From positions 56,792,001-56,856,000 of the forward strand of contig OZ024742.1 in the NCBI GenBank assembly GCA_964016885.1: a stretch of 64,000 nucleotides of DNA, written 5' to 3'. A program made the translations under genes and the position numbers. Shown in pieces: positions 8,711 to 54,800 of the stretch. The number at the start of each line of letters is the position of its first letter. Within the stretch, counting starts at the first letter, position 1. Origin of the DNA: Eledone cirrhosa (Eukaryota). Below the pieces are notes generated by a model that was given only the letters and a program-made list of their open reading frames with translations, was not told where the DNA came from and did not search any database.

Positions 8711-9123
8711 TAAAGAGTTAAACAAGAATTAATGAGTATATCAAAGAATGAGTTTTACAGTAGATTGGAAGCACTCTACGAGAAATAATTTTCCAGAGTT
8801 ATAAATATTAAAATACAAATATTAATAAAATAGATGTTCTTTTGATCAATTACATTTTATTATACATATTTCGGATGTACAACAGTACGTCCTCATCAGA
8901 CAAAATATAATGATACATGACATAACCTGAGATGTTAAATGGTTAAGATTTAATCAAGGGAGTCACTACCTTGATTAAATCTTAACCATTTAACATCTCA
9001 GGTTATGTCATGTATCATTATATTTTGTCTGATGAGGACGTACTGTTGTACATCCGAAATATGTATAATAAAATGTAATTGATCAAAAGAACATCTATTT
9101 TATTAATATTTGTATTTTAATAT
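8711..9123. mobile_element. Palindromic hammerhead mini-element (family P1): 155-bp arms 8805-8959 / 8969-9123 plus ~95-bp unique tail
   Basis: Apparently perfect inverted repeat with a 9-nt loop, flanked by (TA)n. Homologous to 14831-15160 and 54380-54800. Confidence 0.85.
9022..9074 (+). ncRNA. Minimal type I hammerhead ribozyme; mirror copy at 8854-8906 on the minus strand
   Basis: ATTTTGT CTGATGA GGACGTAC-TGTT-GTACATCC GAAA TATGTA TA ATAAAAT. Confidence 0.85.
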
Positions 9124-9685
9124 ATATATATATATATATATATATATATATATATATATATATATATATATATATATATATATATATATATGTGTGTGTA
9201 TATATATATATATAAATGTAATCTGAGTTTTTCGAATATTAAATATAACATTTGATTCGTTTGCAAACAACCCTCAATGTTATAGCCATGTCAGTATAAT
9301 GAACCCTTCATTCTTGCTCTTGTGTTGGCATGAGAACAGAACTGCAGACATCATTAATGTTAATGGCAAGGAAGCATATGTTTTTTAAAAAGACATTTTC
9401 TGTAGGGGCTGTCAAATATATTTTTTTTTTTTTTTATGTAGAATAGGGAGGCCCCTGACACGACTTCCAGTTGCAATCCCCTATTATTTCAAAGTGAAGT
9501 AAACAAGATTAATATGCTACGATTTATCAAACCTCCCCCGAAAAACATTTATTTTGTTGCCCTGTATATTGCTTAATATAAATACCTCTATCGAGGGCCC
9601 ACTTTTCATAATTACAATTCAAAATATATATATATATATATATATATATATATATATATATATATATATATATATATATTTTTTT

Positions 9686-10210
9686 TAAATTGATTGAATT
9701 TTACTTGTTCTGCTTATCTTAATATTAAAGTTCTGCTGTATCAAATTAATACCATTGAACAACCTTGAATCATAGACAACCTATGTATTTCTGGGGGTAC
9801 CTAGTATCCCTGGACATATTAACTTCAATCTCTTTCTCCGTCTGTTGAGAACAATTCTGCTGCTCTATTTAGCTGCTATTTTTTTAGTAGTAATTGTAGA
9901 CAGCAAGTCTTTGATTTTCCCGCTTTTACTTCGGTCCAGTTTACATACGGGTCACTTTTACGACCTTTCAGACCTTTATTTGCTGGCAGGAGGTTATATA
10001 TTTTGTCGTTCCTGGGACGTTTAGCCCTAGGATGGGAAAATGCTTCTCTGATGAGCTTTGGTTTTCCATCATAAATCCATCGGATTTATGAGGTTTTACA
10101 AAGCGAAACTGATCAGTAAGGGCCACTAGGAGAGGTAAATATTTATATTATATTTTTTAATGTATTTTAAAAAATTGATTGAATTTTACTTGTTCTGCTT
10201 ATCTTAATAT
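9686..10210 (+). mobile_element. Retrozyme-like / solo-pLTR unit with ~38-bp terminal direct repeat
   Basis: AAATTGATTGAATTTTACTTGTTCTGCTTATCTTAATAT at ~9688 and ~10172, an internal hammerhead, and (TA)n flanks. Confidence 0.7.
10044..10122 (+). ncRNA. Type I hammerhead ribozyme
   Basis: TTCT CTGATGA GCTTTG..TCATAAATCC-ATC-GGATTTATGA..CAAAGC GAAA CTGATCAG TA AGGG, with palindromic stem III. Confidence 0.8.
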
Positions 10211-10367
10211 ATATATATATATATATATATATACACACACTCACTCACTCACTGTGTGTATATATATACACACTCTCACTCACTCACTGTGTGTATGTGT
10301 ATATATATATAAATATATATATATATATATATATATATATATATATATGTGTGTGTGTGTATGTATG

Positions 10368-53010: not shown

Positions 53011-53229
53011 ATACATATATATATATATATATATATATATATATATATATATATATATATATATAAGAAAGAGAGAGAGAGAAGTTGTTCAAAATTTTAA
53101 GTTTATTCTGCACTAAAAGAATTGGTGGAGCCAAGGGAAGTTGGTACATTCTATCACAGTAAAGAGAAGCTCTATGCTATGTTGAAAAACGAAAAGTTTG
53201 AGATGTAATATTGAATTCCTTCTTCCTTA

Positions 53230-53540
53230 ACTTTGTAACTCCCGGTGGAGTCGTAGGGGCACCATAGTGAGATACAGTGTTTCTTGGGCACCATTTAAAA
53301 ACTTGGTGGCGCCCCTTCCGTCTGAATACAGCCGATTTCTTCCATAGAGTGAAAGAAAAAGGAAGAAAGAAAGAATGAAAGAATCGATTCCAGCACTGGA
53401 CTGGTACTTTATTTGTCGTCCTCGTTAGGATAAAAAGCAAAGTTGACCATGGCGGGATTTTAACTCGAAGTGGAGCGAGCAGGATGAAACACCACAAAGT
53501 ATTCTATTCAACTTTCTAACGACTGACAATTCGCCGTCTA
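53230..53540 (-). mobile_element. Composite SINE (family A-like head and core, CT-rich linker, distinct 3' tail); second copy at ~63255-63590
   Basis: Both loci share GTAACTCCCG..GGAGTCGTAGGGG..CTGAATACA.CCGATTTCTTCCA next to the SINE core. Confidence 0.7.
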
Positions 53541-54379
53541 TAATATTAAATTAGAGACGTCCAATATAGAGGATTTAGAATGAAGTAGATAAGAAAGAAG
53601 ACCAGAGGATCATATTAATGATTTAAAGAGTTTAATTGTGGTTATAGTTATCTTGGAAATATATAATAGGAATAGATAATGACAGTATGTATTTTATGTA
53701 TTGTGATGGGAATGAATAAAGTGCATTCACTACATAAATATTTATTATAATATATAAGAAGTCAAATTTAGCTTTGAATTAAGAGAAGATGAAAGATATT
53801 CCATGGGAAATATAATTAATTTGAAAAATGGGAGTAAGAAAATATTTCGGGGCTAATTAAAAACGAGATATTACTAATATAGCTGTATTGTAAATATTAA
53901 TACATACACAAACATAGGCACACATTATATATGTGTGTGTGTGCCTGTGTCTGCTTCTGTATGTATGTATCTAAGTATATATTCTTCCACATGCGTCAGG
54001 GCAGTATTATGTATGTGTATATATACATATACATATATCCTAAACCATATGAATGAGCTAGAAATACTGAGAGGTGAGAATAGATATTCTGAATAAATGC
54101 CTGATTTTTTAACCGATATGTTTTAATTTATATTAATGTTATATCTTTATATAACAATCTGTATTTTCTAGATTCTAGAAAAGCTTATCTATTAATACAT
54201 TGGTTTCGTGTTAAATTCCATTCCGTGCCCTGGGAAATCGAGCTGCAAATTTGATATATATTGTATATCAATATTTAGACACACATCCTCAGATATCATT
54301 ATAAATATATATCAACATGTATAAATATATACATATATATTTATATATATATATATATATATATATATGAATATATATT

Positions 54380-54800
54380 TAAAAGTTAAACAAGGTTCAA
54401 TGAATAAATCAAAGAATGAGTTTTACAATAGATTGGAAGCACTCAACAGTTTGGTTTTCCAGAGTTATTAATATTAATTCAAAATATTAACAAAATATAT
54501 ATTCTTGTGATCAAGTATATTTTAATATACATATTTCAGAGGTACTGAGTTAACTTCAAAAGCACGTCCTCATCAGATAAAATAAGATGATGCATGACAT
54601 ACCTTGACATAGTAGATGGTTAAGATTCAGTCATGGTAGAATGAATCTTAACCATCTACTATGTCAAGGTATGTCATGCATCATCTTATTTTATCTGATG
54701 AGGACGTGCTGTTGAAGTTAACTCAGTACCTCTGAAATATGTATAATAAAATATACTTGATCACAAGAATATCTATTTTGTTAATAGTTTGAATTAATAT
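54380..54800. mobile_element. Family P1 palindromic hammerhead mini-element with 159-bp arms (54471-54629 / 54642-54800)
   Basis: Near-perfect inverted repeat homologous to 8711-9123. Hammerhead at 54687-54753: TATTTTAT CTGATGA GGACGTGCTG..CAGTACCTCT GAAA TATGTA TA ATAAAATA. Confidence 0.88.

What the first reader, a model, noticed from the sequence alone, without database searches (positions are those of the whole stretch)
8711..54800. Family P1: three copies of a fold-back element with a hammerhead on each strand
Seen: 8711-9123 and 54380-54800 share one architecture of ~90-bp unique tail, ~155-159 bp arm, 9-12 nt loop, and inverted arm ending at (TA)n. 14831-15160 is a reversed copy with a deleted arm. 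Arms within a copy are identical or nearly so, while the copies clearly differ from each other, for example in stem II length. The fold-back point lies at almost the same place, just after ATGGTTAAGATT. Inference: the palindrome is either regenerated at each insertion by snap-back or template switching at a preferred site, or homogenised by arm-to-arm conversion. The result looks like a MITE but derives from a retroelement.
Basis: partly seen in the sequence, partly recalled or inferred. Interest (0 to 1): 0.8.

Follow-up and report, generated by a model that had tools for sequence, protein, structure and literature searches.

The report
Fold-back Penelope insertions ending at promoter
The hairpin-shaped inserts are real but common short copies of a Penelope-like jumping gene, and across the genome their fold points pile up at a predicted transcription start, which likely means each insert is two reverse-transcribed copies joined head to head.

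Summary
The three inserts are real. They are not a separate MITE-like family: they are the shortest insertions of three subfamilies of a Penelope-like element (PLE) with Hydra-clade motifs. Five frameshifted copies read from the same pLTR into the ORF. The layout (inverted tail-less pLTR plus tail, hammerheads on opposite strands, (TA)n target) is published, and this scan saw similar fold-backs in other genomes.

What these data add is the junction. In 88 resolved genomic copies, 64 carry an inverted arm. Breakpoints scatter over 3.5 kb but pile up at one base (+1), an initiator 31 nt after a TATA box. Genome-wide, 29% of arms reaching +1 stop there (6% at +2), often with an untemplated C, as a copied mRNA cap would give. 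The tail-less arm usually reaches further 5' (44 vs 13), which simple snap-back cannot make. Arms differ by 3%, so they are not homogenised.

Best reading: two cDNAs, started at two AUAU sites and primed on both ends of a cut (TA)n, run towards the RNA cap and are end-joined. The start site is inferred; no RNA data were available. Copy B has no intact hammerhead.

The parts
8711..8804 (-). Copy A tail (+254 to +160 counted from the predicted start site), joined to (TA)n
8805..8963 (-). Copy A tail-bearing arm, +159 to +1; ends exactly at the initiator A
8964..8964 (.). Copy A central C: copied cap, or base -1 of the other arm (ambiguous); the same joint recurs at L194 and L212
8965..9123 (+). 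Copy A tail-less arm, +1 to +159, ending on (TA)n
9029..9067 (+). Copy A type I hammerhead core to predicted cut site
8861..8899 (-). Copy A mirror hammerhead core
14829..14989 (-). Copy B tail-less arm, +171 to +10; holds the only core (14934), with C3 changed to U
14985..15158 (+). Copy B tail-bearing arm, +93 to +266 (tail about 15064-15158); 5-nt microhomology with the other arm at 14985-14989
54378..54639 (-). Copy C tail-bearing arm, +264 to +2 (tail about 54378-54470; hammerhead core 54576-54526)
54640..54641 (.). Copy C 2-nt filler at the joint
54642..54800 (+). Copy C tail-less arm, +12 to +170 (hammerhead core 54695-54745), ending on a TA-rich tract

Best explanation
Each insert is a minimal insertion of a Penelope-like retroelement with Hydra-clade motifs, likely made of two separately primed cDNAs joined head to head. 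Shown: the parent element, the (TA)n target, two fixed outer ends (+170/+159 and +264/+254), scattered inner ends with a sharp pile-up at +1, and repair-type joints. Inferred: (1) Pol II starts at +1 in the pLTR and the RNA is capped there; (2) the endonuclease cuts both strands of a (TA)n tract; (3) each DNA end pairs with an AUAU stretch of the RNA, one at the tail-less site and one 94 nt downstream at the tail end, and primes a cDNA, usually on the same RNA or the same source locus; (4) both cDNAs run 5'-ward and stop early or run off at the cap, often adding a C; (5) host end-joining fuses their 3' ends by microhomology or filler. When both reach the cap, a near-perfect palindrome with a hammerhead on each strand results (A, C); otherwise the arms are unequal (B). 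Start sites in the downstream pLTR of a long transcript give the same layout with kilobase arms. The hammerhead is carried along and does not set the ends.
For: Parent: L091, L251, L252, L253 and L254 read from the tail into an RT + C-terminal endonuclease ORF. Outer ends: 54 of 64 inverted arms end within 6 nt of the tail-less site, 59 of 63 on TA, and 99 of 102 tails on TA; 2,230 exact tail-less ends on (TA)n, control 5. Both sites are AT runs in the read-through copies. Inner ends: 35 of 126 ends between -100 and +165 lie at -5..+6 (p 2e-19 against uniform). Genome-wide 1,107 of 3,770 arms leave the template after +1, against 234 of 4,004 after +2. TATAAA sits at about -31 in all three subfamilies. 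Next base after +1: C 405, A 576, T 126; at +2 the first 100 of 234 listed give C 16, A 65, G 19 (p 1.3e-4). In 5 of 30 C-class loci the C lies between +1 and bare (TA)n. An extra G marks capped full-length L1 5' joints (PMC11702581, passage). Asymmetry 44 vs 13, 7 ties (p 5e-5). Arms share a template: at polymorphic sites 32 both-minor and 8 discordant, against about 56 discordant expected; L060 carries two different linked haplotypes. PAc protein cuts and extends both strands and starts at two sites flanking the tail (PMC11167929). Illumina reads from another study show strand-switch joints at +1/+6, +1/+10 and +3/+133.
Against: No RNA run was listed, so start site, cap and transcript are untested. 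An RT pause with terminal-transferase C could mimic the pile-up. Many C's (about 20 of 30 by eye) can also be read as the partner arm's base or filler. A is commoner than C after +1. The +2 control is 100 of 234 rows counted by eye. The sample is the top-scoring tails, which excludes tail arms shorter than about 95 nt; 11 of 102 loci were dropped as unresolved, mostly long tail arms, which could inflate the asymmetry. 24 of 88 resolved copies have no inverted arm. The two-haplotype case is 1 of 51 and could be later conversion. PAc starts without target homology, unlike step 3. No intact ORF was found. Reads did not verify the window's own joints.
Confidence: 0.68

Rival explanations
1. Snap-back: one cDNA primed at the tail end runs to the RNA 5' end, folds on itself, copies itself back to the tail-less site and joins (TA)n there.
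For: Snap-back after full-length cDNA synthesis is seen with R2 proteins (PMC11371274, passages). Arms mostly share alleles. 7 of 16 long fillers are local copies. It fits the 13 copies in which the tail arm reaches further, including window copy C.
Against: It cannot give the 44 copies in which the tail-less arm holds sequence further 5' than the tail arm, up to kilobases more. It does not explain a precise stop at +170, tail-less copies with no partner (L139, L143), or two haplotypes in L060.
Confidence: 0.12
2. Self-priming on an antisense RNA, as proposed for rotifer Penelope palindromes, followed by endonuclease trimming at the two fixed sites.
For: Published reading of head-to-head palindromes (PMC3846280, Discussion). 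With free trimming it can give a longer tail-less arm.
Against: The pile-up lies at a sense-strand initiator 31 nt after a TATA box and carries a C where a sense cap would be copied. It needs two precise trims, whereas PAc shows two RT starts on sense RNA (PMC11167929).
Confidence: 0.1
3. An inherited palindromic, MITE-like unit, or arms kept alike by gene conversion.
For: A few joints recur (L035/L060; the copy A joint at L194 and L212). 17 alleles private to one copy are shared by both its arms. Some copies have identical arms.
Against: 65 of 66 breakpoint pairs are distinct and no allele is side-specific (lowest p 0.12). Arms differ by 3.0%. An inverted arm is nearest its own partner in only 8 of 38 copies, 4 ties. 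Recurring joints sit at the +1 hot spot.
Confidence: 0.05
4. Assembly or chimeric-read artefact.
For: The joints of the three window copies were not shown in reads.
Against: Arms have diverged from each other, ends are precise and biologically patterned, and Illumina reads of three other samples show strand-switch joints at +1 to +3.
Confidence: 0.02

Closest known systems
Hydra clade of C-terminal EN+ PLEs (Craig et al. 2021, PMC8557442, section 11 read)
   Same: RT then C-terminal endonuclease; RW[K/R], DKT, CxCX5C and CxxC motifs; no CCHH pair; hammerhead in the pLTR; (TA)n target.
   Different: Unit about 4.5 kb with a 2-kb 3' untranslated region (Hydra generally under 3 kb); thousands of copies; not placed on a tree with reference Hydra sequences.
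Canonical PLE insertion unit: pLTR, adjacent inverted 5'-truncated copy and 30-40 bp tail (PMC8557442, PMC3846280; passages)
   Same: Head-to-head inverted copy lacking the tail; partial tandems; 5' truncation.
   Different: Tail is 94-95 nt; many copies are reduced to two pLTR pieces; inner ends pile up at a predicted start site with an extra C, which I did not find described.
PAc (Poseidon, Anolis) in vitro system (PMC11167929, parts 1-2 of 4 read)
   Same: Two RT start sites bounding the tail; both strands cut and extended; AT-rich target; hammerhead cleavage not needed.
   Different: PAc starts lie in the ORF and lack homology to the target; here both lie upstream of the ORF and are AT runs that can pair with (TA)n. 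That paper leaves the later joining steps open.
Opposite-strand pairs of minimal hammerheads 100-700 bp apart in Schistosoma (PMC4209133, passages)
   Same: Two type I cores with short palindromic stem III on opposite strands, linked to truncated PLEs.
   Different: Noted there without a junction map or mechanism.
L1 twin priming and cap-derived extra G (PMC11702581, passages)
   Same: Second target end primes a second cDNA; microhomology joints; extra base from the cap.
   Different: L1 inverts without duplicating; here both cDNAs copy the same stretch from two fixed starts, giving a palindrome.

Membership tests
EN+ Penelope-like element | pLTR-ORF-pLTR partial tandem with RT and C-terminal GIY-YIG-type endonuclease | tested here: met
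   L091, L251, L252, L253 (second pLTR partial in L254); tblastn with P0002 covers RT and endonuclease regions. Pfam itself gave only a sub-threshold RVT_1 hit.
EN+ Penelope-like element | Inverted 5'-truncated copy and optional tail | tested here: met
   64 of 88 resolved copies inverted, 54 of 64 tail-less; tail 94-95 nt rather than 30-40.
EN+ Penelope-like element | Type I hammerhead in the pLTR | tested here: met
   Core at +65 in all three subfamilies, palindromic stem III; activity not testable.
EN+ Penelope-like element | Intact, active autonomous copy | tested here: inconclusive
   All 5 read-through copies examined have stops or frameshifts; the genome was not exhausted.
Hydra clade | RWK and DKT motifs | tested here: met
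   RWR and DKT in L091 translation; RWR in L098.
Hydra clade | CxCX5C linker, no CCHH, CxxC before the conserved E | tested here: met
   L091 endonuclease frame: CxCX5C, a single Cys between the GIY- and YIG-like motifs, CxxC before E.
Hydra clade | CxH after the conserved N | tested here: inconclusive
   SxH in L091; CxH in related ORFs of L094, L097, L099 and in P0002/P0003.
Hydra clade | (TA)n target | tested here: met
   99 of 102 tail ends and 59 of 63 inverted ends on TA.
Hydra clade | Generally under 3 kb | tested here: not met
   pLTR-to-pLTR spacing 4.5 kb in L091; the paper gives this as a tendency, not a rule.
Hydra clade | Groups with Hydra RTs in a phylogeny | not tested
   No named reference sequences were fetched; the paper's supplements were not read.
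Neptune clade | CX2-5CxxC linker plus CCHH | tested here: not met
   CCHH absent and linker is CxCX5C.
MITE / foldback DNA transposon | Fixed terminal inverted repeats, copied as a unit | tested here: not met
   Ends are unequal by the tail; 65 of 66 breakpoint pairs distinct.
Non-LTR retrozyme | Head-to-tail tandem hammerhead repeats | tested here: not met
   Copies are head-to-head; 1 of 157 mapped ends lies within 5 nt of the predicted cut.

The most novel reading that the evidence does not exclude
These copies are a genomic record of the PLE integration intermediate: double target-primed reverse transcription from two staggered, target-pairing start sites, run-off at a capped 5' end, and end-joining of the two cDNAs. 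That would replace antisense self-priming as the source of head-to-head PLE palindromes. Further, both start sites and the hammerhead lie inside a predicted leader intron (donor at +39, acceptor near +310, just before the ATG), so only unspliced RNA could be copied, a direct explanation of why PLEs keep their introns.
Probability: 0.4. Interest if true: 0.68.

Novelty: new member of a known kind. Interest (0 to 1): 0.42.

Why it matters
The layout is known, but how PLEs make inverted repeats and tails is stated as open (PMC8557442 passages; PMC11167929). A family with thousands of young copies gives base-level statistics that separate the models: staggered starts, a cap-like extra base, and arms that sometimes come from different templates. 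It also maps a candidate PLE start site from DNA alone and names exact positions to test by 5' RACE, CAGE or an in vitro assay. For annotation, such inserts will be mislabelled as MITEs or microRNA hairpins (Rfam's only match there was a sub-threshold miRNA model). Transcribed copies would form 160-bp duplex RNA that buries both hammerheads (inference).

Tried and rejected
Rfam scan of the window gave no hammerhead. The repeat finder was swamped by microsatellites except for the two arm pairs. My first clade guess, Neptune, was dropped for Hydra after reading the motif list. Hammerhead cleavage as the cause of the ends: rejected, 1 of 157 ends within 5 nt of the cut. Gene conversion: rejected as a general rule. 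I first counted L037 as a tail-to-tail palindrome; it is the upstream pLTR of a full-length copy, so L037, L074 and L122 were removed and the tally went from 45/14/7 of 66 to 44/13/7 of 64. Dropped before counting: the three window copies, one duplicate (L168) and 11 unresolved loci; four rows (L042, L071, L079, L179) and L076 were corrected by hand. L189's 14 arm differences are an alignment artefact. Collision of two RTs on one RNA is not needed to explain the asymmetry: a 94-nt offset does it. Sequencing runs: no RNA holder listed. Reads laid on copy A did not show its own joint. No tree was built; nearest-neighbour and side-specific-allele tests stood in for it. Pfam did not name the parent's endonuclease; its weak LcrV hit is below cut-off. 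Look-ups of earlier findings by sequence and in this genome were empty. Paper searches found no report that maps PLE inversion joints to a start site or cap base; subscription papers and the supplements of PMC8557442 and PMC11167929 were not seen and may hold one. The host species was not determined.

Full report
Observation. The three elements lie where stated, each between (TA)n tracts. Copy A has arms 8805-8963 and 8965-9123, 99% complementary with one base between them. Copy C has 96% complementary arms and an asymmetric centre. Copy B is reversed and its arms meet by a 5-nt microhomology. Type I hammerhead cores with a short palindromic stem III lie on both strands of A and C; B has one core with U at position 3. 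A hammerhead on each strand follows simply from the palindrome. Rfam listed none, and only A folds as a hammerhead in the minimum-energy structure.

The family and its parent. The 3.0-Gb genome holds many copies: 947-2,595 first-look candidates per query, 4,004 arms matching one exact pattern, 2,230 tail-less ends directly on (TA)n (control 5) and 257 near-symmetric folds (control 0). A, B and C belong to three subfamilies, which is why they differ. Longer copies continue upstream through about 2 kb of non-coding DNA into an ORF. L091, L251, L252, L253 and L254 read from the tail end into that ORF, the first four between two pLTRs; all carry stops or frameshifts. The ORF has RT followed by an endonuclease, with RWR, DKT, CxCX5C and CxxC motifs and no CCHH pair. 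These match the description of the Hydra clade, which also has hammerheads and targets (TA)n (PMC8557442, section 11). No tree with reference sequences was built, and the unit is longer than Hydra's usual 3 kb.

Coordinates. I count from the A of a TCA(C/T)T initiator, +1. TATAAA lies at about -31 in all three subfamilies. The hammerhead core starts at +65. The tail-less end is +170/+171 (C, B) or +159 (A); the tail end is +264/+266 or +254. Both ends are AT runs in the read-through copies, so they could pair with a (TA)n primer.

Breakpoint map. I sampled copies by tail similarity only: 102 loci after removing the window copies and one duplicate. Eleven were unresolved and three were upstream pLTRs, leaving 88. 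Of these 64 have an inverted arm and 24 do not. The inverted arm ends at the tail-less site in 54 of 64, at the tail in 2, elsewhere in 8. Its inner end ranges from -3426 to +146, so there is no single fold point; 10 of 64 are near-symmetric like A and C. But 35 of 126 ends between -100 and +165 fall at -5..+6, and only 7 fall at -100..-6. The tail-less arm reaches further 5' in 44 copies, the tail arm in 13, with 7 ties (p 5e-5). Of 61 joints, 22 show microhomology, 9 are blunt, 14 have 1-5 nt filler and 16 longer filler; 7 of those 16 copy nearby sequence. One of 157 ends lies within 5 nt of the predicted ribozyme cut. The sample is score-ranked and cannot include tail arms under about 95 nt; such short tail arms appear in other samples.

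The +1 boundary. Genome-wide, 1,107 of 3,770 arms that reach +1 leave the template at the next base, against 234 of 4,004 one base earlier; both counts include some point mutants. Of 30 read-through loci, 27 continue well upstream, one stops near -11 and two at -2. The base after +1 is C 405, A 576, T 126 times. At the +2 control the first 100 of 234 rows give C 16, A 65, G 19 (counted by eye; C:A differs, p 1.3e-4). In 5 of 30 C-class loci the C sits between +1 and bare (TA)n, and in about 10 of 30 it cannot come from the partner arm; the rest are ambiguous (by eye). A C here is a G before +1 on the RNA strand, the mark of a copied cap at full-length L1 joints (PMC11702581, passage). I infer that +1 is the capped 5' end. 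D. virilis Penelope and a Chlamys element also start transcription in the pLTR (PMC8557442 section 10; PMC2377424 passages), though Penelope's promoter is TATA-less. No RNA run was listed, so this is untested.

Arms. In 48 non-window copies the two arms differ at 166 of 5,504 sites (3.0%), split evenly between arms; copies of one subfamily differ by 3.3-4.8%. An inverted arm is nearest its own partner in 8 of 38 copies, with 4 ties. So there is no homogenisation. The arms do share a template: 44 shared non-majority alleles, 17 private, and at polymorphic sites 32 both-minor and 8 discordant against about 56 expected for unrelated templates. No allele is specific to one side, and 65 of 66 breakpoint pairs are distinct, so the palindrome is not inherited as a unit. 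In L060 the tail arm carries a three-site haplotype seen in other copies and the tail-less arm does not: two templates, or later conversion.

Reads. Three Illumina RAD runs from another study, laid on a linear pLTR, show strand-switch joints at +1/+6, +1/+10 and +3/+133, each from 1-2 read starts and so probably single loci. Fold-backs at +1 therefore exist outside this assembly. The window's own joints were not shown in reads.

Mechanism. Each strand of an insert begins at (TA)n with antisense sequence, one from the tail end and one from the tail-less site. PAc protein cuts and extends both strands and starts at two sites that bound the tail (PMC11167929, parts 1-2). The simplest reading is two cDNAs, primed on both ends of a cut (TA)n, that run towards the cap and are end-joined (0.68). 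A 94-nt offset in starts explains why the tail-less arm usually gets further. Snap-back from one cDNA occurs with R2 (PMC11371274, passages) but needs the tail arm to be the longer, which holds in 13 of 57 (0.12). Antisense self-priming (PMC3846280, Discussion) needs two precise trims and does not explain the extra C (0.10).

Comparison and novelty. The inverted copy plus tail, (TA)n targeting and opposite-strand hammerhead pairs are published. Three earlier notes of this scan report similar fold-backs in other genomes (not checked here). Animal retrozymes are tandem and differ (bioRxiv 10.64898/2026.07.22.740005, part 1 of 5). Nine paper searches found no report of the pile-up at a start site with an extra base; subscription papers and supplements were not seen. 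A further lead: a donor-like site at +39 and an acceptor-like site near +310, kept in subfamilies A and C, would put the hammerhead and both starts inside a leader intron. Verdict: a new member of a known kind with an informative junction pattern; interest 0.42.

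Noticed in passing
window 9691-10195: A different repeat (97% copy in L047) ending on (TA)n, with a type I hammerhead core at 10048 and palindromic stem III; probably the end of another PLE family.
   Followed up: partly
window 10183-13521 +: 1,112-codon open frame with RT and zf-RVT hits; the C-terminus looks like a restriction-like endonuclease (recalled motif, not tested).
   Followed up: no
window 14624-14682 and 15246-15300: A 59-bp imperfect direct repeat flanks copy B and its microsatellites; unexplained.
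   Followed up: partly
window 27356-29589 + and 15280-16706 +: Broken ORFs matching the Hydra-type protein P0002, the second weakly; not linked to the pLTR studied.
   Followed up: partly
window 30997-34229 - and 38848-40680 -: Two more broken PLE-like ORFs; Pfam GIY-YIG at 38851-39780 and weak RVT_1 at 32074-32778.
   Followed up: no
window 1144-6269 +: Broken LINE with APE-type endonuclease, RT and zf-RVT hits.
   Followed up: no
L091, L251-L254, +39 to about +310 of the upstream pLTR: Donor-like and acceptor-like sites just before the ORF start, conserved between subfamilies; predicted leader intron.
   Followed up: partly
L193, L199/L200, L205, L207, L217: One joint (arm to +1, C, partner from +3) recurs at unrelated loci; it could arise from two C-extended cDNA ends pairing around a T-T mismatch (inference).
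   Followed up: partly
L084, L153: Rare inserts with the tail on both arms.
   Followed up: no
L236, L238, L033, L044: A minor class of arms stops at -2 rather than +1; second start site or microhomology, unresolved.
   Followed up: no
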